Source of the DNA: Escherichia coli
GTDB taxonomy: Bacteria; Pseudomonadota; Gammaproteobacteria; Enterobacterales; Enterobacteriaceae
Reading direction: 5' to 3' (one strand)
NCBI RefSeq assembly: GCF_003018235.1
Contig: NZ_CP027437.1
Length of the DNA stretch: 64,000 nt
In this document: one piece after another, positions 27,656-49,920 of the stretch
Position numbering within the stretch: position 1 is the stretch's first letter
Layout: every line of letters starts with the position of its first letter
Notes under the pieces: model-generated
Seen by the model: only the letters and a program-made list of their open reading frames with translations
Database searches by the model: none
Told to the model about the DNA's origin: nothing
Translations under genes and position numbers: made by a program

Positions 27656-28563
<908 letters not shown>

Positions 28564-31541: not shown

Positions 31542-31556
31542 TACATGTTGTAGCAA

Positions 31557-31591: not shown

Positions 31592-31832
31592 ATTAATCAA
31601 AATATTCAATATTTATATATTCCAATATTTATTCATTTCATATGTGAATGTATTAACCAGTGGAATACCTGTGTTTTGATTATTTCTAAAGGTTTTGAAT
31701 GAATGCTTATTATCTGATACACAAGAAATAACACTCTTTTTATCGTTAAAAAATGATATTTCACTTTGCCCACGCCGTTAAAGTCACTGATAATGCGTCC
31801 GTTCGTAAATTCAAAATGGCGTAATCTAATAT

Positions 31833-33332: not shown

Positions 33333-33342
33333 TCTTCCTGAA

Positions 33343-33370
33343 AATGCCCGGTCCTGGCGATCGGGCATTT
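33343..33370. terminator. Stem-loop between convergent pitB and yghT (aatgcccg-N12-cgggcatt)
   Basis: 8-bp perfect stem followed by tccattttt. Confidence 0.55.
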
Positions 33371-33380
33371 CCATTTTTGA

Positions 33381-34073
33381 CTAGTGATACCCACGCGCGG
33401 TCATAAAATCCGTAATCGCTTTTTCTGCATCAACCAGTACCTTTTCCAGTGGCTGATTGGCGTCGATATCAACCAGTTGTGCACCACCAAAGGTTAACTG
33501 TGGCGTTATGGCTATCTTTCTTGCCAGCGATTCCCTTTTGTGGTCAGGCTTACGCGCGCAGGCCACGTCTAGATCGACATTGAGTTTGATGACCAGATCA
33601 GGTTTATGGCTCGCCATCCAGTGAAACGCTTTACGTTCCTGGCTTGCCAGCCATGAGACAAAACGACCACCTTCAATGTTAGGTGGGAACACTGTACCAT
33701 CGTAAGCGCCAGGAATTTGGTCCTGAGGATAACGGTCGGTTAGAACAATTAACCCGCGACGACGACAGGCAAGCATATGACGAAAGCGCAGTAAGCGACG
33801 GGCGACAAACGCTGTAATTACCAGCGCCGGAACAGGGCCAGGCAATTTTTTTGCTGTTTTCACCTGATTTCGTTCAATTGTTTTATGTAAGGATTTTCCC
33901 ATCAACGGTAATTTTGTCACTGCACGACCGACATTTCCGGCCTGTTTTCCTAAATGAACTCTTTCGGCTGCACCATATTTTTCGACAACGGTAATGAGAT
34001 GTTCACACACCGTTGACTTGCCTGAACCATCGCTACCAATAACGGCAATTAATGGAGGTGTTATTGACTGCAT
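33381..34073 (-). CDS. yghT: P-loop NTPase, kinase-like; paralogue of YghS and YghR
   Basis: 230-aa ORF; Walker [10 protein letters not shown]; shared C-terminal motif RKPDH with YghS/YghR. Confidence 0.8.
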
Positions 34074-34246
34074 GAATATATCCTTTAATTTAAATATCCA
34101 TTAAAAATATTTATTTGGTTAATATGTTTTTATGAAAGCGTAATTCAGGTCAATGTCACAATTAACCATTGTCACAATAAGGTTGAACGGATATTCTGAG
34201 CACGGACCACGTAATATTCAATACATTATTTGCTGCCGGGTTTTTC

Positions 34247-34960
34247 GTGAATCAACGTAATATGTCAATAATTAATTCCACGCCAGTGCGTGTTATTGCC
34301 ATTGTAGGATGTGATGGTTCAGGTAAATCGACCCTCACGGCAAGCCTGGTAAATGAACTGGCAGCAAGAATGCCAACAGAACACATTTATCTCGGGCAAT
34401 CGTCCGGGCGAATTGGCGAATGGATTTCACAGCTCCCTGTTATTGGCGCACCTTTTGGGCGTTATTTGCGAAGTAAAGCGGCACATGTGCACGAAAAGCC
34501 CTCAGCACCGCCTGGCAATATTACTGCGCTGGTTATCTATCTGCTTTCCTGCTGGCGGGCGTACAAGTTTCGCAAAATGTTGTGTAAAAGCCAGCAAGGC
34601 TATCTGCTCATCACCGACCGCTACCCGCAGGTTGAAGTGCCGGGTTTTCGCTTTGATGGCCCGCAATTGGCAAAAACCACGGGCGGTAACGGTTGGATAA
34701 AAATGTTAAGGCAGCGCGAGCTGAAGCTGTACCAATGGATGGCGTCTTATTTGCCCGTATTGTTGATTCGTCTTGGCATTGATGAACAAACCGCGTTTGC
34801 GCGTAAACCTGACCACCAACTGGCAGCGTTACAGGAAAAAATCGCCGTTACGCCGCAACTGACATTCAATGGCGCAAAGATCCTTGAACTGGATGGTCGG
34901 CAACCAGCCGATGAAATTATGCAAGCGTCACTACGCGCAATTCACGCCGCGCTTTCCTGA
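34247..34960 (+). CDS. yghS: P-loop NTPase, kinase-like; paralogue of YghT and YghR
   Basis: 237-aa ORF; Walker A GCDGSGKST. Confidence 0.8.
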   Translation: MNQRNMSIINSTPVRVIAIVGCDGSGKSTLTASLVNELAARMPTEHIYLGQSSGRIGEWISQLPVIGAPFGRYLRSKAAHVHEKPSAPPGNITALVIYLLSCWRAYKFRKMLCKSQQGYLLITDRYPQVEVPGFRFDGPQLAKTTGGNGWIKMLRQRELKLYQWMASYLPVLLIRLGIDEQTAFARKPDHQLAALQEKIAVTPQLTFNGAKILELDGRQPADEIMQASLRAIHAALS

Positions 34961-34991
34961 TCACCAAAATGGATAGGGGATGATTTAACGA

Positions 34992-35748
34992 ATGGATGCA
35001 CTACAAACACAAACTGTTAAGAGTACAACCGCGCCGCAGCCCAACTACATTCCGGGGCTGATTGCGGTGGTCGGGTGTGATGGCACCGGTAAATCCACGC
35101 TGACCACCGACCTGGTGAAATCGCTGCAACAACACTGGCAAACCGAGCGGCGCTATCTGGGGCTGCTCTCCGGCGAAGACGGCGACAAAATCAAACGATT
35201 GCCGTTGGTTGGCGTCTGGCTGGAACGGCGGCTGGCGGCCAAATCCTCGAAAACCCAAAGCATGAAAACCAAATTTCCAGCGCTATGGGCGGCGGTGATT
35301 ATGTACTGCTTCTCGCTGCGAAGAATGGCGAATCTACGCAAGGTTCAGCGACTGGCGCAAAGTGGCGTTCTGGTGGTCAGCGATCGCTTCCCGCAGGCTG
35401 AAATTTCGGGCTTTTATTATGACGGACCGGGGATCGGCGTCGAACGTGCGACCGGGAAAATCAGCATGTTTCTGGCGCAGCGCGAACGGCGTTTATACCA
35501 ACAAATGGCGCTACCGTCCTGAATTAATCATTCGCCTGGGCATTGATATTGATACTGCCATCTCCCGCAAGCCTGACCATGACTATGCCGAGCTGCAGGA
35601 CAAAATCGGCGTCATGTCGACGATTGGCTATAACGGCACAAAAATTCTTGAGATTGATTCCAGAGCGCCTTACAGCGAGGTGCTGGAACAGGCACAGAAG
35701 GCGGTTTCTCTGGTTGCCATCGTTTCTGACCGCCGAAGTTTAACTTAA
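34992..35748 (+). pseudogene. yghR: P-loop NTPase YghR interrupted by a frameshift near 35511 (two ORF pieces, 34992-35522 and frame +1 to 35748)
   Basis: Alignment to YghS/YghT (…LYQWMASYLP… / …FHWMASHKP…) shows the frame changing after QQMA; the repaired product would be 252 aa. Confidence 0.7.
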
Positions 35749-35793
35749 GGCAGGCGGGATACTTTTTACTATCAACGATAAGGTCAGGCTGAA

Positions 35794-37143
35794 TTGGCGG
35801 GTTTTAACATCAAACATTGGTTTGCAGATGGCGCGTTTCGCACCATTATTCGCAATAGCGCCTGGTTAGGCTCCAGTAATGTCGTGAGCGCCTTGCTGGG
35901 TCTGTTGGCGCTCTCGTGTGCCGGTAAAGGGATGACGCCCGCCATGTTTGGCGTACTGGTGATTGTGCAATCGTACGCCAAGTCGATCAGCGATTTTATT
36001 AAGTTTCAGACATGGCAGCTGGTGGTTCAGTACGGAACGCCAGCCTTGACCAACAATAATCCGCAGCAATTTCGCAATGTTGTCTCATTTTCCTTCTCGC
36101 TGGATATCGTCAGCGGCGCGGTGGCGATTGTCGGCGGCATTGCCTTACTGCCATTCCTTTCCCATTCATTAGGTCTGGATGACCAAAGCTTTTGGCTGGC
36201 GGCGCTCTATTGCACGCTCATTCCTTCAATGGCTTCCTCCACGCCGACCGGCATTCTGCGTGCGGTAGATCGCTTTGATTTGATTGCTGTACAGCAGGCG
36301 ACGAAACCTTTTCTGCGCGCAGCGGGGAGCGTCGTAGCCTGGTATTTTGACTTTGGTTTTGCGGGTTTTGTTATTGCCTGGTACGTGTCGAATCTGGTTG
36401 GCGGCACCATGTACTGGTGGTTTGCCGCGCGCGAATTACGCCGCAGAAATATCCATAACACCTTCAAATTGAATCTGTTTGAGTCTGCCCGACACATTAA
36501 AGGCGCGTGGAGTTTTGTCTGGTCAACCAACATTGCCCACTCCATCTGGTCGGCACGTAACTCGTGCAGCACAGTGCTGGTGGGGATCGTGTTAGGACCC
36601 GCTGCCGCCGGGTTATTTAAAATCGCCATGACATTCTTCGACGCCGCCGGAACGCCAGCGGGTTTACTGGGTAAAAGTTTTTACCCAGAGGTGATGCGTT
36701 TAGATCCGCGCACCACCAGACCGTGGTTGTTAGGCGTGAAGTCCGGTTTACTGGCGGGCGGAATCGGTATTCTGGTGGCGCTCGCGGTGTTGATCGTCGG
36801 CAAGCCGCTCATTTCGCTGGTGTTTGGCGTTAAGTATCTCGAAGCGTATGACCTGATTCAGGTGATGCTGGGCGCAATTGTGATTTCGATGCTGGGCTTC
36901 CCACAGGAGTCATTGCTATTGATGGCGGGAAAACAGCGCGCTTTTCTCGTGGCGCAAACCATCGCCTCAATCGGCTACATCGTATTGCTGTTCATGTTCT
37001 GTCATCTGTTTGGCGTGCTGGGGGCTGCATTTGCTTACTTCGCTGGGCAATGTCTGGATGTGGTGTTCTCGCTAATTCCAACCTTAAAGGCATTTTTTCA
37101 GCGCCATTCCTTGCTTTATAACGCAGCCGGAGAGAAATCCTGA
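35794..37143 (+). CDS. yghQ: Multi-pass membrane protein of the MOP/Wzx-like flippase superfamily; start codon uncertain
   Basis: 449-aa ORF (maximal), highly hydrophobic; K-12 annotation is shorter, to my recollection. Confidence 0.7.
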   Translation: MAGFNIKHWFADGAFRTIIRNSAWLGSSNVVSALLGLLALSCAGKGMTPAMFGVLVIVQSYAKSISDFIKFQTWQLVVQYGTPALTNNNPQQFRNVVSFSFSLDIVSGAVAIVGGIALLPFLSHSLGLDDQSFWLAALYCTLIPSMASSTPTGILRAVDRFDLIAVQQATKPFLRAAGSVVAWYFDFGFAGFVIAWYVSNLVGGTMYWWFAARELRRRNIHNTFKLNLFESARHIKGAWSFVWSTNIAHSIWSARNSCSTVLVGIVLGPAAAGLFKIAMTFFDAAGTPAGLLGKSFYPEVMRLDPRTTRPWLLGVKSGLLAGGIGILVALAVLIVGKPLISLVFGVKYLEAYDLIQVMLGAIVISMLGFPQESLLLMAGKQRAFLVAQTIASIGYIVLLFMFCHLFGVLGAAFAYFAGQCLDVVFSLIPTLKAFFQRHSLLYNAAGEKS

Positions 37144-37967
37144 TGATGAGAAAATATTTCCCGCTTGAGGCTAGCGAGCGTCTATTTGTTGCGATTGAAG
37201 AAGATGATGTCGTTGATGCACAGGTCAGTTTGCCGCCGACTATCGCACTAAGTTGTACCACCGAAATCATCCATGATAATTACGCGTTATGCCTGAAATT
37301 CTGGCTGGATGGTGTTAATCGTCAGGAGCTACTGCGTTTAATCCGCAAACAGGCGAAAGGCGATGAGCTGACGACAGACGAGCGCAAAAAGTATAAATAC
37401 ATGCGAGCGCGCTACAAGCATCTGCGCTTTGCGCAACGGCTGTATTTAAAGAAGCATCAGGCCGGATTTTTATTCGGCAAAACGACCGTTTTTTTGGGGC
37501 GTTTTCAGGACGGCTTTCGTAACGGTAAGAAAAATATTGTGTCGTATTACGGCAACCTGTTACGGGTTTATTTAAGCTCTCCGGTCTGGTCGTTGGTGAA
37601 CTATTCATTACGCCATAGCCAGTTAGAAAGCGTAAGCGGTTTTATTGCCTATCGGCAAAAGCAAATGCATACCCTGAAAGAGATAATTGCCAAACCGCGA
37701 CTAACTGGCAGGGAATTTCATGATGTGCGAAAAATCATCAGCCAGCAGGTTTCTTATTACGACACCCTAAGATCGCTTGATCCTGAAAATAAAGAGGCGT
37801 TACAGATTTCCCGCTTCCTCGCCGCCATTAATGGCCTGATGGGGGATAAACACGACGACATGGTGGCGGATGATATGGAAAACCGCCAGTCGTATGATGC
37901 ACCGGTGGCGCTGGATAGCGATATTCGCCAGCGCTTAGAGCTGCTGATTTCGCGTTTTCCGCTATAA
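37143..37967 (+). CDS. Hypothetical protein, 274 aa, no recognisable domain
   Basis: Start overlaps the yghQ stop (TGATG); charged, non-membrane. Confidence 0.55.
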   Translation: MMRKYFPLEASERLFVAIEEDDVVDAQVSLPPTIALSCTTEIIHDNYALCLKFWLDGVNRQELLRLIRKQAKGDELTTDERKKYKYMRARYKHLRFAQRLYLKKHQAGFLFGKTTVFLGRFQDGFRNGKKNIVSYYGNLLRVYLSSPVWSLVNYSLRHSQLESVSGFIAYRQKQMHTLKEIIAKPRLTGREFHDVRKIISQQVSYYDTLRSLDPENKEALQISRFLAAINGLMGDKHDDMVADDMENRQSYDAPVALDSDIRQRLELLISRFPL

Positions 37968-37975
37968 CCGGAGCA

Positions 37976-38539
37976 ATGATGTCATCTCGTTTGATTATTG
38001 CGCTGATTATCATGCTCTTAGCCCCGGGTGTGCAGGCACACAATTTCGTCACTGGCAAAACGGTTACCCCTGTTTATATCCAGGAAGGCGGCGAGCTGCT
38101 TCTGAATAGCGACGACGAAATTCACTACCAAAAGTGGAACAGCACACAGCTGGCGGGAAAAGTTCGCATTATTCAGTATATCGCCGGGCGTAAGTCGGCG
38201 AAGAAAAAGAACTCACTGTTAATTAAAGCGGTTGAAGCGGCAAACTTTCCGCAGGATCGTTTTCAGCCCACCACCATTGTGAACACCGATGATGCCATTT
38301 TTGGTACTGGCTATTTTGTCGTTGGCAAAATCGAAAAAAATAAACGCCGCTATCCGTGGGCGCAATTCGTTATTGACGGCAATGGACAGGGACGCGTTGC
38401 CTGGCGGTTGCCGGAGCAGAGTTCAACCATTCTGGTGCTGAATAAAGCCGGGCAAATTCAGTGGGCAAAGGACGGCAGCCTGACGCCGGAAGAGGTAGAA
38501 CATGTCATTGCGCTGGCGCAGAAACTGATCAATGAATAA
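37976..38539 (+). CDS. YtfJ-family periplasmic protein
   Basis: 187-aa ORF; signal peptide MMSSRLIIALIIMLLAPGVQA; conserved TTIVNTDDAI and WAKDGSLTPEEV blocks recalled from E. coli YtfJ. Confidence 0.55.
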   Translation: MMSSRLIIALIIMLLAPGVQAHNFVTGKTVTPVYIQEGGELLLNSDDEIHYQKWNSTQLAGKVRIIQYIAGRKSAKKKNSLLIKAVEAANFPQDRFQPTTIVNTDDAIFGTGYFVVGKIEKNKRRYPWAQFVIDGNGQGRVAWRLPEQSSTILVLNKAGQIQWAKDGSLTPEEVEHVIALAQKLINE

Positions 38540-38569
38540 AAAATTCAAAGGATTGAGGGCGTTAGTGAG

Positions 38570-39640
38570 ATGAAGCTGGTTGAACACTACATCATGCGTG
38601 GTACGCGCCGTCTGGTGCTGATTATCGTCGGTTTTCTGATCTTTATTTTCGCCAGCTACTCCGCACAGCGTTATCTGACCGAAGCGGCAAATGGGACATT
38701 AGCTCTTGATGTTGTGCTGGATATTGTTTTCTACAAGGTGCTGATTGCACTGGAGATGTTGTTACCTGTTGGACTGTATGTGTCAGTTGGCGTGACGCTA
38801 GGGCAGATGTATACCGACTCGGAAATTACCGCTATTTCTGCGGCGGGGGGCAGTCCGGGACGCTTGTACAAAGCCGTTCTTTATCTGGCGATACCGCTAA
38901 GTATTTTTGTCACCCTTCTGTCGATGTATGGTCGTCCGTGGGCTTATGCGCAGATTTATCAACTGGAGCAACAGTCACAGTCGGAGCTGGATGTTCGCCA
39001 GTTGCGGGCAAAGAAATTTAACACTAACGATAACGGACGAATGATCCTTTCGCAGACGGTTGATCAGGATAATAATCGCCTGACTGACGCGCTGATTTAT
39101 ACTTCTACTGCCAATCGAACCCGCATTTTCCGCGCCCGTTCGGTTGATGTGGTTGACCCATCACCTGAGAAACCGACCGTTATGTTGCATAACGGGACCG
39201 CCTATCTTCTCGATCATCAGGGGCGTGACGACAACGAACAGATCTACCGTAATCTGCAATTACATCTGAATCCGCTGGATCAAAGCCCTAACGTCAAACG
39301 CAAAGCAAAATCGGTCACGGAGCTGGCGCGCTCCGCCTTTCCTGCCGATCATGCCGAACTGCAATGGCGACAAAGCCGTGGCCTGACAGCATTGTTGATG
39401 GCGCTGCTGGCCATTTCATTAAGTCGGGTAAAACCGCGGCAAGGGCGATTTTCAACGTTATTGCCACTGACGTTGCTGTTTATTGCCATTTTTTATGGCG
39501 GCGACGTCTGCCGTACGCTGGTGGCTAACGGCGCGATTCCCCTCATTCCTGGTTTGTGGTTAGTACCCGGACTCATGCTAATGGGCCTGCTGATGCTGGT
39601 CGCACGCGACTTCTCATTGCTGCAGAAATTTTCCCGATGA
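38570..39640 (+). CDS. LptF-like permease (YjgP/YjgQ family)
   Basis: 356-aa ORF; N-terminal TM helices, periplasmic beta-jellyroll-like insert, C-terminal TM helices. Confidence 0.65.
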   Translation: MKLVEHYIMRGTRRLVLIIVGFLIFIFASYSAQRYLTEAANGTLALDVVLDIVFYKVLIALEMLLPVGLYVSVGVTLGQMYTDSEITAISAAGGSPGRLYKAVLYLAIPLSIFVTLLSMYGRPWAYAQIYQLEQQSQSELDVRQLRAKKFNTNDNGRMILSQTVDQDNNRLTDALIYTSTANRTRIFRARSVDVVDPSPEKPTVMLHNGTAYLLDHQGRDDNEQIYRNLQLHLNPLDQSPNVKRKAKSVTELARSAFPADHAELQWRQSRGLTALLMALLAISLSRVKPRQGRFSTLLPLTLLFIAIFYGGDVCRTLVANGAIPLIPGLWLVPGLMLMGLLMLVARDFSLLQKFSR

Positions 39641-40716
39641 ATGTTTTCAGTCGCTATTTAATCCGTCATCTCTTTCTCGGTTTTGCCGCCGCCGCAGGGC
39701 TATTGCTGCCGCTTTTTACCACCTTCAACCTGATTAACGAACTGGATGATGTCAGCCCGGGCGGTTATCGCTGGACTCAGGCGGTGCTGGTGGTGCTGAT
39801 GACCTTACCGCGTACACTGGTCGAACTTTCGCCGTTTATCGCATTATTGGGAGGGATTGTTGGCCTGGGGCAGTTATCGAAAAACAGTGAGCTTACCGCC
39901 ATTCGCAGCACGGGGTTTTCTATCTTCCGTATTGCACTAGTGGCGCTGGTTGCCGGGATATTGTGGACTGTTTCGTTAGGCGCGATAGATGAGTGGGTGG
40001 CGTCGCCATTGCAGCAACAGGCGCTGCAAATCAAATCGACTGCCACCGCGTTGGGGGAGGACGATGACATTACCGGCAATATGCTTTGGGCCAGGCGCGG
40101 TAATGAATTTGTGACGGTGAAATCGCTGAACGAGCAGGGCCAGCCTGTGGGCGTGGAGATATTTCATTATCGCGACGATCTCTCGCTCGAATCCTACATT
40201 TTTGCACGCAGTGCCTCCATTGAAGACGACAAAACATGGATCCTGCATGGTGTGAATCATAAAAAATGGTTGAATGGCAAGGAAACGCTGGAAACATCAG
40301 ATAATCTTGCCTGGCAATCGGCCTTCACCAGTATGAATCTTGAAGAGTTATCGATGCCGGGAAATACTTTTTCTGTCCGTCAACTTAATCATTACATCCA
40401 TTATTTGCAGGAAACTGGGCAACCCAGCAGCGAATACCGCCTTGCACTGTGGGAAAAACTGGGACAACCCATCCTGACCCTGGCGATGATTTTGCTGGCT
40501 GTGCCGTTTACCTTTAGTGCCCCGCGTTCGCCTGGGATGGGTAGCCGTCTCGCTGTAGGCGTCATCGTGGGCTTACTTACCTGGATCAGCTATCAAATCA
40601 TGGTCAATCTGGGATTGCTATTTGCGTTGAGCGCACCTGTTACCGCGCTCGGTTTACCGGTAGCGTTTGTGCTGGTGGCGTTGAGCCTGGTGTATTGGTA
40701 TGACAGACAACATTAA
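39637..40716 (+). CDS. LptG-like permease (YjgP/YjgQ family), paired with the upstream gene
   Basis: 359 aa from ATG at 39637 (MNVFSRYLIRHLF), overlapping the upstream stop (ATGA). Confidence 0.65.
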   Translation: MNVFSRYLIRHLFLGFAAAAGLLLPLFTTFNLINELDDVSPGGYRWTQAVLVVLMTLPRTLVELSPFIALLGGIVGLGQLSKNSELTAIRSTGFSIFRIALVALVAGILWTVSLGAIDEWVASPLQQQALQIKSTATALGEDDDITGNMLWARRGNEFVTVKSLNEQGQPVGVEIFHYRDDLSLESYIFARSASIEDDKTWILHGVNHKKWLNGKETLETSDNLAWQSAFTSMNLEELSMPGNTFSVRQLNHYIHYLQETGQPSSEYRLALWEKLGQPILTLAMILLAVPFTFSAPRSPGMGSRLAVGVIVGLLTWISYQIMVNLGLLFALSAPVTALGLPVAFVLVALSLVYWYDRQH

Positions 40717-40746
40717 ACCCGCCGTGGCGCAACACCACAGCGGGCT
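40717..40746. terminator. Hairpin between the convergent permease and lipid-synthesis operons
   Basis: cccgccgtgg-N7-ccacagcggg, 10-bp stem with one mismatch. Confidence 0.4.
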
Positions 40747-40750
40747 CACA

Positions 40751-41923
40751 TTACTGCTTCAGAGTAGCGAACGCTTGAATGATGGCATCAATTTGCTCAC
40801 GACTGTGGGCAGCGTTTACGCTACAGCGCAGCAGCGTGATGCCTGCAGGCGCGGCAGGTGGCAGGATAAGATTCACATAAACGCCCAGCGAAATAAGCTC
40901 GCGCCAGATGCGTAAACCTTCCTCTTTCGAACCGATTATTACTGGCACTACCGGGCTAATATGTGAACTTAACTCATAATCCAGTTTTTGCAGACCGTCA
41001 TACAGATGGTTGGCATTATCCATCAGCTTTTGCCGCAACTCTGGTTGTGAGACAATGGTTCTTAACGACGAGCGCACGGTCGCAATGCAGGACGGAGAAG
41101 GAGAGGCGGTAAAAATATACGGGCGGCTGCCGTAGCGCAACACTTCCATCGCTTCCGAACCGACAGCAAAACCGCCAATCGAGGCCAGGCTTTTACTGAA
41201 GGTACCAACGATAATATCCACATCATCTTCAACGCCAACGGCTTCAGCCAGTCCGCGCCCCGTTGCGCCTAACACGCCAAACGAATGCGCTTCATCGACA
41301 ATCAAATAACCACCGAGACGACGTTTGATATCAACAATTTCCGCCAGCGGCGCAACGTCACCGAGCATACTGTAGATGCCTTCAACGATGATAATCGCCT
41401 CTTTTGCCCGTTCACCGAGGCGAACCATGCGCCGTTCCAGATCTTTAGCATCGTTATGGCGGAAACGAATAATTTCCGCGCCACCGAGAGAACAGGCGTC
41501 ATAAATACTGGCGTGGCTGTCGGCATCCAGTAACACCACGGCGTTATGGTCGGCAAGTGCGCTGATGACGCCTAAATTAGCGGTATAACCGGTTGAAAAA
41601 ACGATAGCGGTAGGGCGATTAAAAAACTCGGCGATCTCTTTCTCTAACGCCAGATGCGGCGCATAACTGCCGTTTGCCATACGAGAACCGGTGGTGCCGG
41701 TGCCTTGGGCCGCTAACGCTGCCTGACCTTCGGCGATGGCATCATGATTAAAGGTTAAACCGAGATAATTATTGGTCCCGGCCAGAATCACTTTTTTATT
41801 GCCGATCCGACCTTCGGTGGCGGAATACACTTCATCAATACAGGTGCCAAACGGTGTTAACCCGTTGTCACTAAATTGCAGTCGCTCGCCAGCAAGGCGC
41901 GCATATTTATCGTATAGCCCCAT
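40751..41923 (-). CDS. PLP-dependent alpha-oxoamine synthase, serine palmitoyltransferase-like
   Basis: 390-aa ORF; PLP-lysine motif GTFSKSLASIGG (SPT-like rather than BioF GTFGKA or Kbl GTLGKA) and DADSHAS histidine motif. Confidence 0.75.
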   Translation of the reverse strand: MGLYDKYARLAGERLQFSDNGLTPFGTCIDEVYSATEGRIGNKKVILAGTNNYLGLTFNHDAIAEGQAALAAQGTGTTGSRMANGSYAPHLALEKEIAEFFNRPTAIVFSTGYTANLGVISALADHNAVVLLDADSHASIYDACSLGGAEIIRFRHNDAKDLERRMVRLGERAKEAIIIVEGIYSMLGDVAPLAEIVDIKRRLGGYLIVDEAHSFGVLGATGRGLAEAVGVEDDVDIIVGTFSKSLASIGGFAVGSEAMEVLRYGSRPYIFTASPSPSCIATVRSSLRTIVSQPELRQKLMDNANHLYDGLQKLDYELSSHISPVVPVIIGSKEEGLRIWRELISLGVYVNLILPPAAPAGITLLRCSVNAAHSREQIDAIIQAFATLKQ

Positions 41924-42171
41924 TATTTATTCTCCAGCCATGGAAGTAGTGTTTCCATTAATTGCGCAGGGGTTTTGACATCCAGCAGAATATTAATAGG
42001 AATGGAAATATCGAATCTGTCTTCCAGCATCATTAAGAGATCCATCACTTTGATCGACTCCAGGCCAAGATCGTTGACGAGATCGCTGTCGGGCTTAATT
42101 TCCACACCGTTTTCGACCAAATCCTGTAAACAGGAAAGGATGTAATCCATTACTATTTCACGATTTACCAT
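41923..42171 (-). CDS. Dedicated acyl carrier protein
   Basis: 82-aa acidic ORF with phosphopantetheine-site-like DLGLESIKVMDL; stop overlaps the downstream start. Confidence 0.7.
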   Translation of the reverse strand: MVNREIVMDYILSCLQDLVENGVEIKPDSDLVNDLGLESIKVMDLLMMLEDRFDISIPINILLDVKTPAQLMETLLPWLENK

Positions 42172-42202
42172 AGAAACGTTAACACACCTTTAAACAAGAC
42201 AA

Positions 42203-43117
42203 TCAAAATAGCCCGTTGCGTAATGCGTGTTCCAGGCTAATCCCGGGAAACCAATTAATATCTTCAGAAATACGGTTATTACTTGCCGACCAGTCGGCAT
42301 GAGTTAATTCACGGATTTTCGAACGAGTCAGCATCGGTTCTTTACCCGCCAGACGGCTCAACGCGGTACTGATATCCGCAAGGCAGGTGAGTAGCGGCAG
42401 AGGAATACCGACCATCCGCACGGAACCGCAACGGGCGTCGGCGGCAAGCTGTCTTACGCGTTGCCAGTCATAGCCTCCGGCGACGCCATCGCATAATTCA
42501 TAGGTTTGCGTCTGTACAGTTTCGGCGCTTAACCACTGACCCACTGCTTGCGCAAAATCGGTGACGTGAAGAAAAGAGAGCTGTGTCTCTGGCGTGCCAA
42601 GTCGTGGCAGCAGGCCGCGCAGCATCCAGTCAAACAGCGGTTTTAACTCTTTATCGCCGGGACCATACACGGCTGTCGGGCGAAAAACGCCCAGCGTAAT
42701 TTCATCAGCCATTGCAGTCAGCCGTTGTTCGGCGACGTGTTTGGAATTTGCGTACCAGGAGAGTTCGGGATGGCGCGCCGCCAGCGAAGAGATAAACAGA
42801 AAACGTTGGCAAAAGCCGCTCTCTTTTGCCGCTTGCATCAGGCGCAGGCTGCCGTCAACGTTACAGCGGGTAAAAATCTCTTCTTTGTGTCCGCGCACTT
42901 GTCCGGCGCAATGGACCACCGCGCTGGCTCCGGCAACCAGTTCGCTAAGCGAATGTGTATCTTCCAGCGAACCGCGCACCCAGATGAGATTATCATTGAC
43001 GTGAGCGCGGGCAGTACGCGTCAATGCGCGAACGTGAAAGCCGCGGGCGAGCAGGTTATCGATAATATATTTACCGATAAACCCGGTAGCGCCCGTCACC
43101 GCGACAGTTTGATTCAT
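42203..43117 (-). CDS. NAD(P)-dependent epimerase/dehydratase-fold reductase (extended SDR)
   Basis: 304-aa ORF; Rossmann motif GATGFIG; catalytic YANSK (YxxxK). Confidence 0.7.
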   Translation of the reverse strand: MNQTVAVTGATGFIGKYIIDNLLARGFHVRALTRTARAHVNDNLIWVRGSLEDTHSLSELVAGASAVVHCAGQVRGHKEEIFTRCNVDGSLRLMQAAKESGFCQRFLFISSLAARHPELSWYANSKHVAEQRLTAMADEITLGVFRPTAVYGPGDKELKPLFDWMLRGLLPRLGTPETQLSFLHVTDFAQAVGQWLSAETVQTQTYELCDGVAGGYDWQRVRQLAADARCGSVRMVGIPLPLLTCLADISTALSRLAGKEPMLTRSKIRELTHADWSASNNRISEDINWFPGISLEHALRNGLF

Positions 43118-44850
43118 GCCAGGGATTCCTGCACATGAAGGCTTGCAGCATAACGTTTTTTCGCTTCCGCACGGGCAGGCTTGCCGGAGGACGTTCGGGG
43201 AATACTGTGGGGCGGCAACAGATCGATAGCCGCTGTTACGCCAAATTCGCTTTGGATCCGTGCTACCAGTGCGTGGATAAGCTGCCCACGACGTTCTTCG
43301 TCGCTGATCCTACACTGGATCTGCAGAATGATTTTTTCCTGGGCGGTAACAAAAGCAATCGCATCGCCAGAATGAATTTCCGGTTCCTGTTCCGCAATAT
43401 ATTCAATATCCTGCGGCCAGATATTACGGCCACGAATAATAATCAGATCTTTAATGCGTCCGGTGACATACAGATAACCGTCCAGCAGATAACCGAGGTC
43501 GCCGGTGTCTAACCAGCCCGTCGCGGCAATCTCGTCTTGTGAAATCTGGTCGCCAAAGTAACCGCTCATCAGGCTAGGGCCGGAGATGCAAATATGGCCT
43601 ACCACACGTTCCGCGACAGGTATACCTGCTTCATTGCGGATTTCAATGCCATGTTCCGGCAACGCTTTACCGCAGTTGACGAAAGTCGATACGGCGCGTG
43701 TTTCAGCATCCGGCGCGACGGCTTTGCCCTGATATTCGAGGATGTCGCGATCCACTTCGTTAACCACAACCCCGGAAGCTTCATCAGAGAAGCTGACAGC
43801 CAGCGCATTTTCTGCCAGTCCGTAGCACGGCATGAAAGTTTTATCGTCAAAGTTGACCTGACGGAAACATTCAGCGAATTGATGGAGTTGTTCTGCGGAG
43901 ATGGGTTCTGCACCAATACCAGCGACGCGCCAGCAGGAAAGATCCAGTTCAGCGAGATCTTTTTCATTCACGCGGCGCTGGCACAATTCATAGCCAAACG
44001 GCGGCGCAACGGAAACGGTGCCGCGATTTTTACTGATCAATTTAAGCCATTGCAGAGGACGCATGGCAAAATCCTGAGTGCGCAAATAATCTACTGAAAG
44101 CTGCGTGGCGACGGGGGGCAGGAGAAAGCCGACCAGTCCCATATCATGGTAGAAAGGCAGCCAGGAGACGCAGCGGTCGCCAGGGCGTAATTTAATGCCA
44201 TCGTGGCTTATAGCACGTAGATTAGCCATCACTTCGCGATGGGTGATAATGACGCCACGGGGAAAACGGGTGCTGCCGGAGGTGTACTGGAGGTAGGCGA
44301 TATCGTTCGGAACTGGACGCTGGAGCGCAACATCGGCTTCCGGTAATGCCTTAAACCAGGCGTGGCTTAAAACATGTAATTCGGGGTTGTTATGCGTAGC
44401 GGCATTGACCAGTGGCAACCACTCATCACCAGTGATAATGGCTGCGGGCTGGCAACTTGCCAGTAAACCCTGCAGTTTGGCGCTCCAGGAATCCCGCTGA
44501 CCGACGCCCATTGGAATCGCCAACGGGACGGCGACTAAGCCGGCATACTGGCAGGAAAAAAAAGCCTCTACGAACCCGCTACTGGTTTCGGCAATCAGCG
44601 CCACGCGATCGCCTTTTTTCAGGTTCAGCGATAACAACCGCTTCGCACCAGCTTCGGCACGCGCTTTTAACGTCTGATATTCCAGTTGATCTTCAAGTTG
44701 GCAACGTCTGTCATAAAAATTCATTCCGGCGCTACTCAGAGCGGCGTAGTCCAAAGCATCAACCAGCGTTGGAAAATCGGCATAGCGCATAGGTAGGGAA
44801 TGCGTAAAGATTTTATTAGACATATACACCACGAAAAAATTGGATATCAA
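43114..44850 (-). CDS. Adenylate-forming acyl-AMP ligase / acyl-ACP synthetase-like enzyme; start uncertain
   Basis: 578-aa ORF; AMP-binding motif YTSGSTRFPRG; 4-nt overlap with the downstream reductase gene. Confidence 0.7.
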   Translation of the reverse strand: MISNFFVVYMSNKIFTHSLPMRYADFPTLVDALDYAALSSAGMNFYDRRCQLEDQLEYQTLKARAEAGAKRLLSLNLKKGDRVALIAETSSGFVEAFFSCQYAGLVAVPLAIPMGVGQRDSWSAKLQGLLASCQPAAIITGDEWLPLVNAATHNNPELHVLSHAWFKALPEADVALQRPVPNDIAYLQYTSGSTRFPRGVIITHREVMANLRAISHDGIKLRPGDRCVSWLPFYHDMGLVGFLLPPVATQLSVDYLRTQDFAMRPLQWLKLISKNRGTVSVAPPFGYELCQRRVNEKDLAELDLSCWRVAGIGAEPISAEQLHQFAECFRQVNFDDKTFMPCYGLAENALAVSFSDEASGVVVNEVDRDILEYQGKAVAPDAETRAVSTFVNCGKALPEHGIEIRNEAGIPVAERVVGHICISGPSLMSGYFGDQISQDEIAATGWLDTGDLGYLLDGYLYVTGRIKDLIIIRGRNIWPQDIEYIAEQEPEIHSGDAIAFVTAQEKIILQIQCRISDEERRGQLIHALVARIQSEFGVTAAIDLLPPHSIPRTSSGKPARAEAKKRYAASLHVQESLA

Positions 44851-45194
44851 AAATAAAATGACAATAATGCGGTGGATTATATAGGCATAAAAGATAAATG
44901 AGATAGTATTTTCATCAGTGTGAAAATGAACATTGATTTAAATAATGAGTTTGAGTTTTTTTGTTTTTATTGTGAATGATATTTAATTTATGAATGTATT
45001 AAGAAGAAGCCTTGTCCGGTCGCCTTAAATCGACAAAAGGCATTGTGGCGCTTCTGTGTAGTCTCTGACCTTATCGTAATCATTAATAAATGCTATTTAT
45101 TCGTCGTTTGTATTCATTGGGTTGATTATTAAGGTGCCGTTCGTTGCTGTTGCAACCTGTTTGTCACCGTTAATTATTTGTTACCCACAGAACT

Positions 45195-46337
45195 ATGGAA
45201 TGCGATCTGCTGATGATTAAAATTGAAAAAGTAATTAATAAAAATGACCTTAAGGCATTTATCGCTTTTCCGTCATCACTTTATCCCGACGATCCAAACT
45301 GGATACCCCCTTTATTCATTGAACGCAACGAGCATTTGTCTGCGAAAAATCCGGGGACGGACCATATCATCTGGCAGGCGTGGGTGGCAAAAAAAGCCGG
45401 GCAGATAGTTGGGCGAATTACCGCGCAAATCGATACCTTGCACCGTGAGCGTTACGGTGAAGATACCGGTCATTTCGGCATGATTGACGCCATTGATGAT
45501 CCGCAGGTTTTTGCCGCGTTGTTTGGCGCAGCGGAAGCGTGGTTGAAGTCACAAGGAGCAAGTAAGATCAGCGGGCCTTTCAGCCTGAATATCAATCAGG
45601 AAAGCGGATTACTGATTGAAGGTTTCGATACACCACCCTGTGCGATGATGCCGCACGGTAAACCGTGGTATGCCGCGCATATTGAACAATTGGGTTATCA
45701 CAAAGGCATTGATTTACTGGCGTGGTGGATGCAGCGAACCGATCTCACTTTCTCTCCGGCGCTAAAAAAACTGATGGATCAGGTGCGTAAGAAGGTGACC
45801 ATTCGCTGCATCAATCGCCAGCGGTTTGCCGAAGAGATGCAGATCCTGCGTGAGATTTTCAACTCTGGCTGGCAGCACAACTGGGGATTTGTGCCGTTTA
45901 CCGAACATGAATTCGCGACCATGGGCGATCAACTTAAATATCTGGTGCCGGACGATATGATCTACATCGCTGAGATTGATTCTGCACCCTGCGCGTTTAT
46001 TGTCGGCTTGCCAAACATCAACGAGGCGATTGCCGATCTGAACGGATCGCTCTTTCCCTTCGGCTGGGCAAAATTGCTGTGGCGTTTAAAAGTCAGCGGT
46101 GTGCGAACTGCGCGAGTACCGCTGATGGGCGTGCGGGACGAGTATCAGTTTAGCCGCATCGGCCCGGTGATTGCGCTGTTATTGATTGAAGCCTTACGCG
46201 ATCCGTTTGCCCGCCGGAAGATCGATGCGCTGGAAATGTCATGGATCCTCGAAACCAATACAGGCATGAATAACATGCTGGAACGCATTGGGGCGGAGCC
46301 GTACAAGCGTTACCGATTGTATGAAAAGCAGATTTAA
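45195..46337 (+). CDS. yghO: GNAT-fold acyltransferase-like protein, intact
   Basis: 380-aa ORF, divergent from the lipid operon across an AT-rich region; GNAT assignment is from recollection of this family, not a motif scan. Confidence 0.6.
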   Translation: MECDLLMIKIEKVINKNDLKAFIAFPSSLYPDDPNWIPPLFIERNEHLSAKNPGTDHIIWQAWVAKKAGQIVGRITAQIDTLHRERYGEDTGHFGMIDAIDDPQVFAALFGAAEAWLKSQGASKISGPFSLNINQESGLLIEGFDTPPCAMMPHGKPWYAAHIEQLGYHKGIDLLAWWMQRTDLTFSPALKKLMDQVRKKVTIRCINRQRFAEEMQILREIFNSGWQHNWGFVPFTEHEFATMGDQLKYLVPDDMIYIAEIDSAPCAFIVGLPNINEAIADLNGSLFPFGWAKLLWRLKVSGVRTARVPLMGVRDEYQFSRIGPVIALLLIEALRDPFARRKIDALEMSWILETNTGMNNMLERIGAEPYKRYRLYEKQI

Positions 46338-46343
46338 TACCAG

Positions 46344-47108
46344 CTAACTCTGGTTCATCTCCAGCGGCACCGCCGAGCGAATCAAATGGTGGCCTTCCAG
46401 CTCGATATCGTGGAGATTCTTTTTCACGGTCCGCACATGATCGCGTGCTGCGCGCTGGGCGACGTGCGGCAGCCGCTGCAACACCGCGTTGTAGATCCGC
46501 GCATGCTGGCGATCGATCTGCTTTTTTTGCTGTGGTCGATGGTAGAGATTATTTACGCTGGCAAACACTGAATTAAACATCAGGTCGGTCAATGATTGCA
46601 GTGTAAACACCAACACCTGATTGTGAGAAGCCTGACAAATGGCGAGATGGAAAGCGTGATCCAACTGCGCATGTTCGATCAGCGAAATCTCTTTGTTGTT
46701 CTCACTGGCGGCGAGCATTTTTTCATAACAGCGGGTTATCACAACAAAATCAGCCTGCGTTCCCAGCGTTGCCGCCAGCCTTGCCGATTCGCCCTCCAGC
46801 AATGCGCGAACGTCGAGCAGATCATACAGCGTTCGCGGCTGCGTACTGAACAGATGGATCAGCGGGCTGGTGTCCTGCACCCGATTAAGCCGTGCGACAC
46901 GAGAATCGCGACCCTGCGCCGTTTCAATAATCCCGCGCCCGCGCAGCACGGTCAGCCCTTCACGCAGTGCGGAGCGTGAGAAGCCGAGCTTTTCACACAG
47001 TCGACGTTCCGAGGGAAGCGGCTGACCGACCTTCAGTACGCCGTCGATAATTAACCGTTCGATACTCTCTGCAACCACTTCGCAAATAGGGCGACGTTCA
47101 TCTTTCAT
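46344..47108 (-). CDS. glcC: GntR/FadR-family transcriptional activator of the glc operon
   Basis: 254 aa from ATG at 47108 (MKDERRPICEVVAESIE); divergent from glcD. Confidence 0.9.
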   Translation of the reverse strand: MKDERRPICEVVAESIERLIIDGVLKVGQPLPSERRLCEKLGFSRSALREGLTVLRGRGIIETAQGRDSRVARLNRVQDTSPLIHLFSTQPRTLYDLLDVRALLEGESARLAATLGTQADFVVITRCYEKMLAASENNKEISLIEHAQLDHAFHLAICQASHNQVLVFTLQSLTDLMFNSVFASVNNLYHRPQQKKQIDRQHARIYNAVLQRLPHVAQRAARDHVRTVKKNLHDIELEGHHLIRSAVPLEMNQS

Positions 47109-47358
47109 TCCCGGACCTCGTGCACAGGTAGGACCAATTTTTCTGTTCTTGACTCGCAAAACACGCACATCACGTAAGTGATTATGTTACATCAATTTAA
47201 CATTAAGTTAACCAAGACAAGGTCACAGAGCTGGAAAAAAAATGGTCTGACCGGTAGCTAAAGAGATAGACGAAAACGAAAAGCCCGCTTAATAACTGTT
47301 CACAGAAGCAGCGCGCAAAAATCAGCTGCCACACAACACAACAAAGCGAAGCCTACTC

Positions 47359-49910: not shown

Positions 49911-49920
49911 GGAGCAGGCT

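What the first reader, a model, noticed from the sequence alone, without database searches (positions are those of the whole stretch)
35794..46337. Full-length form of a locus that is collapsed in K-12
From what I recall of K-12, yghQ and a yghO remnant flank an IS2 copy with none of the intervening genes. Here about 9 kb of coherent coding sequence (unknown protein through acyl-AMP ligase) lies between an intact yghQ and an intact yghO, and no IS2 is present. Intergenic regions are AT-rich but coding GC looks host-like, so this is likely an old, variably retained accessory locus.
Basis: partly seen in the sequence, partly recalled or inferred. Interest (0 to 1): 0.5.

Follow-up and report, generated by a model that had tools for sequence, protein, structure and literature searches.

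The report
E. coli ceramide-lipid locus lost in K-12
This stretch is the intact form of a gene cluster for making and probably exporting a ceramide (sphingolipid) membrane lipid; about three quarters of sequenced E. coli carry it, and the laboratory strain K-12 lost it through IS5 insertion-sequence deletions, so it is real but its core is already described.

Summary
Window 35794-46337 carries ten intact genes and no insertion sequence. K-12 replaces 8,372 bp (36863-45234) with a single IS5, not IS2. In K-12, yghQ loses its last 94 codons and yghO only its first 13.

The locus is the E. coli dihydroceramide cluster already described in strain B/BL21(DE3): aasR (a fatty acyl-AMP ligase, crystal structure 3PBK), cerR, acpR, spt and yghO. 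Next to it lie a flippase (yghQ) and second copies of LptF and LptG.

It is near-core rather than accessory. It is complete in 4,063 of 5,426 complete genomes, sits at the same site in E. whittamii, and has dN/dS of 0.04-0.15. Losses are independent and linked to insertion sequences: K-12, O157:H7 and scattered others. The early K-12 stock WG1 is an intermediate state.

I have not seen the following reported. The conserved unit is 13 genes and also includes yghT, yghS and yghR, which are kinases with the thymidylate-kinase fold. The "hypothetical" 274-aa protein has a CHAD-like fold. The operon kinase-kinase-YghQ-CHAD-like recurs in the same order in Sphingomonadales.

No native E. coli sphingolipid has been demonstrated.

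The parts
33381..34073 (-). yghT: P-loop kinase with the thymidylate-kinase fold (T-type paralogue), divergently transcribed from yghS.
   Evidence: ORF. Travels with the module in at least 10 genera. 49-50% identical to the second kinase of the Sphingomonas/Novosphingobium operon. NCBIfam dTMP-kinase score is 24.4 against a cut-off of 83.25, so it is not a dTMP kinase.
34247..34960 (+). yghS: P-loop kinase with the thymidylate-kinase fold (S/R-type) and first gene of the 7-gene + strand operon.
34992..35748 (+). yghR: third paralogous kinase. It is frameshifted in this window by a 2-bp deletion after 35511.
   Evidence: Split ORFs 34992-35522 and 35362-35748. Alignment to the intact 759-bp gene of L001.
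35794..37143 (+). yghQ: MOP-superfamily (Wzx/MurJ-like) flippase, the candidate inner-membrane flippase for the lipid. K-12 keeps only nt 1-1065.
   Evidence: NCBIfam MOP flippase hit, below the curated cut-off. Polysacc_synt Pfam on homologues. 49-51% identical to Sphingomonadales homologues in the same operon position. K-12 junction mapped.
37143..37967 (+). 274-aa 'hypothetical' protein (Ybl138) with a CHAD-like double four-helix-bundle fold. Many Arg/Lys/His residues are invariant.
37976..38539 (+). YtfJ-family protein with a predicted N-terminal signal peptide, so probably periplasmic (second copy, 'ytfJ2').
   Evidence: TIGR01626 score 212 against a cut-off of 151. N-terminal hydrophobic stretch ending ...VQA|HN read from the translation. 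Conserved in the module across Enterobacterales.
38570..39640 (+). lptF2: divergent second copy of the LPS-export permease LptF.
   Evidence: TIGR04407 score 319 against a cut-off of 230. E is only 1e-25 against housekeeping E. coli LptF 6MHU.
39637..40716 (+). lptG2: divergent second copy of LptG. Its start overlaps the lptF2 stop by 4 nt.
   Evidence: TIGR04408 score 304.7 against a cut-off of 240. PGAP coordinates in L001.
40714..40748 (.). 16-bp-stem hairpin between the convergent lptG2 and spt genes, a likely bidirectional terminator.
   Evidence: Top terminator-like hit. This is a consensus match only.
40751..41923 (-). spt: serine palmitoyltransferase.
   Evidence: NF047599 equivalog score 594.9 against a cut-off of 500. 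Best PDB matches are Sphingomonas SPTs at E 1e-110. The E. coli B orthologue was shown to make 3-oxo-sphinganine from acyl-AcpR (PMC9386255).
41923..42171 (-). acpR: specialised acyl carrier protein directly upstream of spt.
   Evidence: PP-binding Pfam on homologues. The E. coli B AcpR carries 4'-phosphopantetheine and is acylated by its cognate AasR (PMC9386255).
42203..43117 (-). cerR/epi: NAD-dependent epimerase/dehydratase-family reductase, the putative ceramide (3-keto) reductase.
   Evidence: SDR/epimerase hits. 34% identical to the gene beside spt in a Caulobacteraceae MAG. Assigned as 'epi' ECD_02852 in PMC9386255.
43114..44838 (-). aasR: fatty acyl-AMP ligase acting as the acyl-AcpR synthetase.
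   Evidence: Matches PDB 3PBK 'Fatty Acyl-Adenylate Ligase' at E = 0, 1269 bits. E. coli B AasR acylates AcpR(Ec) (PMC9386255).
44839..45194 (.). AT-rich divergent intergenic region between aasR and yghO, presumed to hold both promoters. It is deleted in K-12.
   Evidence: GC 0.41-0.43. Lies inside the K-12 deletion. Promoters were not demonstrated; the scan is at background level.
45195..46337 (+). yghO: putative N-acyltransferase, the bacterial ceramide synthase (aca/bCerS) homologue.
   Evidence: Named 'aca: CC_1154, yghO ECD_02850' in PMC9386255. 42% identical over 98% of its length to a gene 6 kb from spt in a Caulobacteraceae MAG. About 80% identical homologues always lie beside the cluster in other Enterobacterales. 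No Pfam or PDB sequence hit.
36863..45234 (.). Interval missing from MG1655-type K-12 (8,372 bp) and replaced by one IS5. The sequence flanking IS5 is TTAG on the left and TTAA on the right.
36863..38218 (.). Interval missing from the early K-12 stock WG1 (1,356 bp). It shares the MG1655 left junction but has a different right junction, also at TTAA.
41958..41961 (.). TTAA target of WG1's second IS5. This is a simple insertion with a duplicated TTAA in the 3' end of acpR.

Best explanation
The window holds the intact, ancestral Escherichia version of a sphingolipid island. Four genes on the minus strand (aasR, cerR, acpR, spt) and the divergent yghO make dihydroceramide.

The proposed pathway runs as follows. 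AasR adenylates a fatty acid and loads it on the dedicated carrier AcpR. Spt condenses acyl-AcpR with serine to give 3-oxo-sphinganine. YghO N-acylates it, and CerR reduces the 3-keto group.

The plus-strand operon is yghS-yghR-yghQ-(CHAD-like)-ytfJ2-lptF2-lptG2, with yghT alongside. It most likely modifies the head group with phosphate chemistry. It would then flip the lipid across the inner membrane through YghQ and pass it to an Lpt-type machine, LptF2G2, presumably borrowing LptB, for delivery to the outer membrane.

K-12 lacks all of this because an IS5 that landed in yghQ caused rightward deletions. In WG1 the deletion is 1.36 kb, with a second IS5 in acpR. In the EMG2/MG1655 lineage it is 8.37 kb, reaching codon 14 of yghO.

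Status of each step:
- Shown by others in E. coli B: the AasR, AcpR and Spt steps.
- Shown here: gene identities, deletion junctions, prevalence, purifying selection and module conservation.
- Inferred: the order of YghO and CerR, every transport and head-group step, and that wild E. coli actually makes the lipid.
For: Gene identities:
- Spt passes its NCBIfam equivalog cut-off, and LptF and LptG pass theirs.
- Spt's nearest solved relatives are the Sphingomonas SPTs.
- AasR is PDB 3PBK.

Published biochemistry (PMC9386255):
- SPT(Ec) prefers acyl-AcpR, and AasR(Ec) acylates AcpR(Ec).
- Five genes, including yghO, are assigned to dihydroceramide synthesis.
- Sphinganine- and ceramide-like spots appear in BL21 once 3-oxo-sphinganine is supplied.

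Caulobacter parallel: its cluster holds a flippase plus LptC2, LptF2 and LptG2, proposed for sphingolipid transport (PMC11324152).

K-12 junctions:
- Mismatched TTAG/TTAA flanks in MG1655.
- WG1 is an intermediate, matching the report of an IS5-flanked extra block in WG1 (PMC9997739).

Census: 4,063 of 5,426 genomes are at least 80% complete, and 342 carry the K-12 junction.

Selection: dN/dS is 0.04-0.15 for the 12 genes that could be tested, against E. whittamii.

Module conservation:
- The 13-gene module is retained through at least 3 rearrangements in at least 10 genera.
- The Pseudomonas variant substitutes an MsbA-like ABC flippase and adds a DAGK-type lipid kinase and a phosphoethanolamine transferase.
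- The kinase-kinase-YghQ-CHAD-like operon is conserved in Sphingomonadales.
Against: - No sphingolipid has been reported from unmodified E. coli. BL21 carrying empty vectors shows an ordinary lipid profile (PMC9386255), so the cluster is silent under the conditions tried.
- YghO has no detectable Pfam domain or solved relative by sequence. Its acyltransferase role rests on homology to CC_1154 and on linkage.
- The cluster encodes no LptB- or LptC-like protein and no obvious head-group transferase.
- The roles of the three kinases, the CHAD-like protein and YtfJ2 rest only on linkage and fold.
- yghR is frameshifted in this particular window.
Confidence: 0.8

Rival explanations
1. The block is a recently acquired, strain-specific genomic island in the window's strain, and K-12 shows the ancestral empty state.
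For: The intergenic regions are AT-rich. The cluster is shared at 70-85% protein identity with distant Enterobacterales and with Pseudomonas in different genomic contexts, which shows it has moved horizontally at some time.
Against: - It is present at the same pitB...glcC site in 75% of complete E. coli genomes and in E. whittamii and cryptic-clade Escherichia.
- K-12 retains truncated yghQ and yghO ends abutting an IS5 with mismatched flanks. That is a deletion scar, not an empty site.
- WG1 still holds most of the block.
- No integrase, tRNA or direct repeats bound the block.
Confidence: 0.02
2. The locus serves LPS or polysaccharide export, as the database names suggest ('lipopolysaccharide biosynthesis protein', LptF, LptG). 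On this view the aminotransferase, ligase and ACP genes make an acyl-amino decoration or a small signalling molecule of the CAI-1/LAI-1 type rather than a sphingolipid.
For: PGAP names. The LptF and LptG models pass their cut-offs. Alpha-oxoamine synthases also include the autoinducer synthase CqsA, which scores E 1e-34 against Spt. No native E. coli sphingolipid has been reported.
Against: - Spt scores far better on the SPT equivalog (595 bits, above cut-off) than on the CqsA-type model (218 bits against a cut-off of 428) or on BioF or Kbl.
- E. coli B Spt makes 3-oxo-sphinganine in vivo and in extracts (PMC9386255).
- All five ceramide genes co-occur, as in Caulobacter.
- The yghQ and CHAD-like partners recur specifically in Sphingomonadales and Acetobacteraceae. 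By my own background knowledge these are sphingolipid producers.
Confidence: 0.07
3. The cluster is an evolutionary relic in E. coli: transcriptionally dead and on its way out, with K-12, O157:H7 and others simply further along.
For: It has been lost repeatedly and independently through IS elements: K-12 (IS5), O157:H7 (IS3/IS66 junction inside pitB), TUM1880 (IS1A) and ECCWS199 (IS1). It is silent in BL21 under laboratory conditions. yghR is frameshifted in this window.
Against: - dN/dS is 0.04-0.15 for every gene tested over the E. coli-E. whittamii divergence, similar to glcC, glcD and pitB.
- The reading frames are intact in more than 4,000 genomes.
- The 13-gene set is kept together through several rearrangements across genera.
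Confidence: 0.1

Closest known systems
E. coli B / BL21(DE3) sphingolipid genes ECD_02850-ECD_02854 (yghO/aca, aasR, epi, acpR, spt), Padilla-Gomez et al. 2022, PMC9386255
   Same: This is the same locus, orthologous at about 97% DNA identity (a B-strain derivative is row H17). It has the same five genes in the same order.
   Different: Only the five biosynthetic genes were discussed there. The eight neighbouring genes (yghT, yghS, yghR, yghQ, CHAD-like, ytfJ2, lptF2, lptG2), the prevalence across E. coli and the K-12 deletion mechanism were not treated in the sections I read.
Caulobacter crescentus sphingolipid region CC_1152-CC_1168 (Olea-Ozuna 2021; PMC11324152; Klein lab, PMC11087976)
   Same: It has Spt, AcpR, AasR, CerR and bCerS, plus a MOP-type flippase (CC_1166) and second copies of LptF and LptG in one neighbourhood. 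A Caulobacteraceae MAG shows 53%, 43%, 34%, 42% and 33% identity to Spt, AasR, CerR, YghO and YghQ.
   Different: Caulobacter adds LptC2 and the ceramide-phosphoglycerate genes, including a DAGK-family ceramide kinase. E. coli has none of these. Instead it has three kinases of the thymidylate-kinase fold, a CHAD-like protein and a YtfJ-family protein, none of which was found in the Caulobacteraceae locus.
Extra IS5-flanked block in E. coli K-12 WG1 (Browning et al. 2023, PMC9997739)
   Same: This is the same DNA. WG1 keeps lptF2, lptG2, spt, acpR', cerR, aasR and yghO between and beside two IS5 copies.
   Different: That paper lists the genes as lptG, acpP and oleD and does not identify them as a sphingolipid cluster. 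The junction analysis here shows that WG1 is itself partly deleted.
CHAD domains, which are polyphosphate-binding modules (Lorenzo-Orts et al. 2019, PMC6537752)
   Different: There is no sequence-level match to Pfam CHAD. The protein is encoded in a lipid flippase operon rather than with polyphosphate kinases or phosphatases. Ligand binding is untested.

Membership tests
Proteobacterial ('Rhodobacteria'-type) dihydroceramide synthesis cluster | A serine palmitoyltransferase of the alpha-oxoamine synthase family | tested here: met
   NF047599 equivalog 594.9 bits against a cut-off of 500. Sphingomonas SPT structures match at E 1e-110.
Proteobacterial ('Rhodobacteria'-type) dihydroceramide synthesis cluster | A dedicated ACP gene immediately upstream of spt in the same operon | tested here: met
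   An 82-aa ORF at 41923-42171 whose stop overlaps the spt start by 1 nt. PP-binding Pfam on homologues.
Proteobacterial ('Rhodobacteria'-type) dihydroceramide synthesis cluster | A specialised acyl-ACP synthetase (AasR) of the FAAL type | tested here: met
   Matches the E. coli FAAL structure 3PBK at E = 0. Activity on AcpR(Ec) was shown by others (PMC9386255).
Proteobacterial ('Rhodobacteria'-type) dihydroceramide synthesis cluster | A CerR-type NAD-binding reductase and a bCerS-type N-acyltransferase | tested here: inconclusive
   Homologues of both lie beside spt in a Caulobacteraceae MAG, at 34% and 42% identity. YghO has no recognisable domain by sequence. Enzyme activities were not tested.
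Proteobacterial ('Rhodobacteria'-type) dihydroceramide synthesis cluster | The organism actually produces ceramide or another sphingolipid | not testable with these tools
   Only heterologous or over-expression data exist for E. coli B.
LptB2FG-type lipid extractor | A paired LptF and LptG permease | tested here: met
   TIGR04407 at 319 bits and TIGR04408 at 304.7 bits, both above their cut-offs. The two genes overlap by 4 nt.
LptB2FG-type lipid extractor | Its own LptB ATPase and LptC partner | tested here: not met
   No ABC ATPase or LptC-like ORF lies within 33381-46337. It would have to borrow the housekeeping LptB.
CHAD domain (Pfam PF05235) | A sequence match to the CHAD profile | tested here: not met
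   No CHAD hit, even at E <= 10, for the protein or for any of the 13 homologues.
CHAD domain (Pfam PF05235) | A double four-helix-bundle fold | tested here: met
CHAD domain (Pfam PF05235) | Binds inorganic polyphosphate | not testable with these tools
   -
Thymidylate (dTMP) kinase, the name PGAP gives YghS and YghT | Score above the curated dTMP-kinase cut-off | tested here: not met
IS5-mediated adjacent deletion | A complete IS5 whose two flanks are different target-like tetranucleotides, with the host sequence between them missing | tested here: met
   A 1,195-bp IS5 with TTAG on the left and TTAA on the right. 8,372 bp are missing in MG1655 and 1,356 bp in WG1. WG1's second IS5 has a normal TTAA duplication.

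The most novel reading that the evidence does not exclude
The K-12 orphan genes yghQ, yghR, yghS and yghT, together with the gene K-12 lost (the CHAD-like Ybl138), would be the remains of an ancient operon specific to sphingolipid-producing bacteria. The operon order is kinase-kinase-MOP flippase-CHAD-like protein, conserved in the same order from Sphingomonadales to E. coli.

On this reading it builds and flips a phosphorylated, possibly pyro- or polyphosphorylated, ceramide head group. That would be the missing inner-membrane step of bacterial sphingolipid export, and LptF2G2 would then carry the lipid to the outer membrane.

It implies that most wild E. coli can place a ceramide-based lipid in their outer membrane under conditions never met by K-12.
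Probability: 0.3. Interest if true: 0.75.

Novelty: already known. Interest (0 to 1): 0.4.

Why it matters
K-12 is the reference for E. coli lipid biology, and it is one of the minority of strains that cannot make this lipid. The textbook statement that E. coli has only PE, PG and cardiolipin may therefore be partly an artefact of the strain used.

The intact locus is under purifying selection in about 4,000 sequenced strains. These include Nissle, LF82, ATCC 25922 and BL21.

The locus also offers a genetically easy host for an open question stated in 2024 by the Caulobacter field (PMC11087976): which proteins flip bacterial sphingolipids and carry them to the outer membrane. The conserved partners found here are concrete candidates: YghQ, LptF2G2, YtfJ2, the CHAD-like protein and three kinases of unknown substrate.

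Tried and rejected
1. I first read the mismatched TTAG/TTAA flanks as recombination between two IS5 copies, one in yghQ and one in yghO. I searched for the predicted inner junction (IS5 right end + TTAG + window 36862 onward). No genome carries it.

2. I then expected WG1's 'IS5-flanked block' to be that ancestor. It is not. Its first IS5 already has a deleted right side, and its second IS5 sits in acpR, not yghO. MG1655 therefore cannot arise from simple recombination between WG1's two copies.

3. A single-base difference in the IS5 of ER1821R looked like a possible chimera mark. It is private to that strain; the MG1655 copy is identical to both WG1 copies.

4. I asked whether YghR, YghS and YghT could be the bacterial ceramide kinase. 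The Caulobacter kinase CpgB belongs to the DAGK/LCB5 family, which is unrelated.

6. Sequence searches for YghO and the 274-aa protein against Pfam, NCBIfam and PDB gave nothing.

7. Rfam found no RNA family in 31000-48000. The promoter scan was at background level.

8. Papers mentioning yghQ or yghO in K-12 (chlorhexidine adaptation, the silkworm screen) concern the truncated remnants and say nothing about function.

9. The report of Enterobacter 'SPT' and sphingosine (PMC11413220) identified its SPT genes only by BLASTP homology. I did not use it as support.

10. Olea-Ozuna 2021 is not in the library.


Full report
**Observation**

The region 35794-46337 contains ten tightly packed ORFs on two strands and no insertion sequence. 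It is collinear at 98.4% identity with an 18.5-kb stretch of a wild E. coli chromosome. NCBI annotates that stretch, in order, as:
- pitB, yghT, yghS and a hypothetical gene (yghR);
- a 'lipopolysaccharide biosynthesis protein' (yghQ), a hypothetical protein and a YtfJ-family protein;
- lptF and lptG;
- spt, an acyl carrier protein, an NAD-dependent epimerase/dehydratase and a fatty acyl-AMP ligase;
- yghO, glcC and glcD.

A K-12 derivative aligns only to window 32000-36862 and 45235-50500. The missing 8,372 bp are replaced by one 1,195-bp IS5, not IS2. The IS5 is identical in MG1655. K-12 yghQ keeps 1,065 of 1,350 nt, and K-12 yghO loses only its first 40 nt.

**The deletion scar**

In K-12 the IS5 is flanked by TTAG on the yghQ side and TTAA on the yghO side. 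A simple IS5 insertion duplicates one 4-bp target, as WG1's second copy does with TTAA. The mismatch therefore marks a deletion next to the element.

Browning et al. (PMC9997739) noted that the early K-12 stock WG1 carries an extra block 'flanked by IS5 elements'. I fetched WG1 and mapped it.
- Its first IS5 has the same TTAG left junction as MG1655. Its right flank is TTAA at window 38219, inside the YtfJ-family gene, so 1,356 bp are missing.
- A second, identical IS5 is a clean insertion in the 3' end of the ACP gene.
- lptF2, lptG2, spt, the reductase, the ligase and yghO are intact.

WG1 is thus an intermediate state. The MG1655 state is a larger rightward deletion from the same yghQ::IS5. 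It arose either independently or from a WG1-like state, and the data do not decide between these. Both right ends fall on TTAA. By my knowledge this fits the IS5 target YTAR; PMC11677980 cites CTAA and CTAG. That pattern points to transposase-mediated events. No complete genome retains the presumed simple insertion.

**Prevalence**

- The deleted block is at least 80% complete in 4,063 of 5,426 complete E. coli genomes, and some match exists in 4,276.
- The whole 24-kb neighbourhood is intact in 4,038.
- The K-12 junction is present in 342 genomes, and every listed one is a laboratory derivative.
- The evenly spaced sample shows the locus in IAI39, ATCC 25922, Nissle, an APEC O2:K1 strain, an O145 strain and many commensal, animal and environmental isolates. 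One search adds LF82, NU14 and a B-strain derivative. By my own knowledge of these strains, that spans phylogroups A, B1, B2, D and F.
- O157:H7 genomes stop matching inside pitB, where an IS3/IS66 junction begins.
- Other strains show different, IS1-bounded deletions.
- The same genes sit between pitB and glcC in E. whittamii and two cryptic-clade Escherichia.

The locus is therefore ancestral to E. coli, near-core, and repeatedly lost through insertion sequences.

**What the genes are**

- Spt passes NCBI's curated equivalog cut-off for serine palmitoyltransferase (594.9 bits against 500). Its best solved relatives are the Sphingomonas SPTs (E 1e-110).
- The ligase is the protein crystallised as E. 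coli fatty acyl-adenylate ligase 3PBK.
- Padilla-Gomez et al. (PMC9386255) describe exactly this locus in BL21(DE3): ECD_02850 (yghO, 'aca'), ECD_02851 (aasR), ECD_02852 (epi), ECD_02853 (acpR) and ECD_02854 (spt).
- They showed that AcpR(Ec) carries phosphopantetheine and that AasR(Ec) acylates it. SPT(Ec) prefers acyl-AcpR and yields 3-oxo-sphinganine.
- Sphinganine- and ceramide-like spots then appear, 'possibly by intrinsic enzymes' of BL21.
- With empty vectors the lipid profile is ordinary, so the native cluster is silent in the laboratory.

The core identification is therefore already published.

**Selection**

Nei-Gojobori dN/dS between the window and E. whittamii is 0.04-0.15 for yghT, yghS, yghQ, the 274-aa gene, ytfJ2, lptF2, lptG2, spt, acpR, cerR, aasR and yghO. 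The flanking genes pitB, glcC and glcD give 0.017-0.03. yghR could not be tested because it is frameshifted in the window. The tested genes are maintained by selection and are not decaying.

**The conserved unit is larger than the finding**

YghO has about 80% identical homologues in Serratia, Citrobacter, Pluralibacter, Pantoea, Erwinia and others. In every context examined they sit beside the same cluster.

A scan of one genome per species with Spt, followed by tblastn of all window proteins, identifies thirteen genes that stay together: yghT, yghS, yghR, yghQ, the 274-aa gene, ytfJ2, lptF2, lptG2, spt, acpR, cerR, aasR and yghO.
- They occur together in Escherichia, Citrobacter, Pseudocitrobacter, Hafnia, Sodalis, Serratia, Mangrovibacter, Pluralibacter, Rosenbergiella and Pantoea.
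- The surrounding genes differ between genera.
- The internal order of sub-blocks takes at least three different forms.

Retention through rearrangement argues that all thirteen work together. The functional unit in the window therefore starts at 33381, not 35794.

Pseudomonas carries a variant. It has lptF2G2, yghO, aasR-cerR-acpR-spt and two YghS/T-like genes, with three differences:
- an MsbA-like ABC exporter stands where YghQ would be;
- it adds a DAGK-family lipid kinase;
- it adds a CptA-like phosphoethanolamine transferase.

A different flippase type occupies the same slot, and head-group enzymes sit nearby. Both fit a pathway that makes a phospholipid-like ceramide and exports it.

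**The unannotated members**

YghR, YghS and YghT are paralogues with invariant GxDGxGK(S/T), DRxPQ and RKPDH motifs.
- The proteins miss the dTMP-kinase cut-off by a wide margin (24.7 bits against 83.25), so the PGAP name is an over-call.

The 274-aa protein has no sequence match in Pfam, NCBIfam or PDB.
- It folds with high confidence (pLDDT 91, pTM 0.87) into a double four-helix bundle.
- CHAD domains are polyphosphate-binding modules (PMC6537752).
- Foldseek against AFDB finds 26-42% identical proteins annotated as CHAD in Sphingomonas, Zymomonas, Acetobacter, Komagataeibacter, Gluconobacter, Commensalibacter and Pseudomonas veronii. By my own knowledge these are largely sphingolipid-making lineages.
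- The family is small: 323 cluster representatives out of 1.84 billion.

Genomic context ties these members together.
- In Sphingomonas aliaeris and Novosphingobium the genes lie in the order kinase, kinase, YghQ homologue (49-51% identical to E. coli YghQ), CHAD-like protein (37-39% identical). This matches E. coli's yghS-yghR-yghQ-274aa.
- In S. aliaeris the operon is followed by a PMT_2 glycosyltransferase, a DAGK-type kinase, a nucleotidyltransferase and a PHO4/Pit phosphate transporter with a PhoU-like gene.
- An Acetobacter-like contig has kinase, CHAD-like and YghQ-like genes next to a GT4 glycosyltransferase and a UDP-glucose dehydrogenase.
- The Caulobacteraceae locus lacks both the kinases and the CHAD-like protein.

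I found no paper linking CHAD domains or yghRST to sphingolipids.

**Proposed mechanism**

- Shown by others: fatty acid to acyl-AMP to acyl-AcpR (AasR). Acyl-AcpR plus serine gives 3-oxo-sphinganine (Spt).
- Inferred from homology to Caulobacter (PMC11087976): N-acylation by YghO in the cytoplasm, then reduction by CerR.
- Inferred from linkage and fold only: phosphate-based head-group chemistry by the three kinases with the CHAD-like protein; flipping by YghQ; extraction by LptF2G2 using the housekeeping LptB; and a role for YtfJ2 in the periplasm.
- The cluster has no LptB or LptC of its own. LptF2 is only distantly related to the housekeeping LptF (E 1e-25).

**Verdict**

The finding is real and correctly located, but the insertion sequence was mis-remembered. 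Its main content is already in the literature: the E. coli B sphingolipid genes, and the extra block in K-12 WG1.

- exact junctions and the stepwise IS5 history;
- a census of 5,426 complete genomes;
- evidence of purifying selection;
- a 13-gene conserved module;
- a CHAD-like fold for the 'hypothetical' protein;
- a kinase-flippase-CHAD-like operon shared with Sphingomonadales, which I have not seen described.

Noticed in passing
window 34992-35748: yghR is split into two overlapping ORFs by a 2-bp deletion (AA) after position 35511, relative to the intact 759-bp gene in other E. coli. This is either a strain-specific pseudogene or a sequencing error.
   Followed up: yes
window 31833-33332 (pitB); L013, L014, L015, L027 (about 18.6-20.5 kb); L023 2492-3985; L071 15169-16182: A Pit/PHO4-family phosphate transporter lies next to the module in several taxa. 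In Escherichia, two Citrobacter species, Pseudocitrobacter and Hafnia it is adjacent to yghT. In Pluralibacter it is on the other side, beside uspA/uspB. It also lies beside the Sphingomonas aliaeris operon. E. coli's second Pit gene, pitB, may have arrived with the cluster. The identity matrix is suggestive but not decisive.
   Followed up: partly
window 27174-28531: An IS3-family element (IS1397-like, two ORFs) sits between hybG and yghU. Most E. coli lack it there (query positions 1-610 are unmatched in most rows). TUM1880 has an IS621 in the same intergenic region.
   Followed up: no
window 33381-34960: RefSeq/PGAP names YghS and YghT 'dTMP kinase'. Their scores (24.7 and 24.4 bits) are far below the model's curated cut-off of 83.25.
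   Followed up: yes
L009 and L010 against window 30763-51832: In Escherichia sp. E1V33 and E. whittamii the cluster part is about 90% identical to the window. The adjacent glc part is 96.6% and 93.8% identical. Synonymous divergence also varies widely between cluster genes, from 0.13 to 0.83. This may reflect recombination or older alleles inside the cluster.
   Followed up: no
L017 and L028 (Serratia sp. M24T3): This genome has two spt-acpR pairs. One lies in a full module. The other is a lone acpR-spt pair (79% identical) with none of the other module genes within 10 kb.
   Followed up: no
L007 11354-13325: In Serratia liquefaciens a DgkA-type diacylglycerol kinase gene and a MATE transporter gene directly follow yghO. 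They may be additional partners or a coincidence.
   Followed up: no
L011: The record titled 'Escherichia coli strain SCPM-O-B-8794' is only 91.3% identical to the window across 19.7 kb, similar to the cryptic-clade records. It may be misassigned to E. coli.
   Followed up: no
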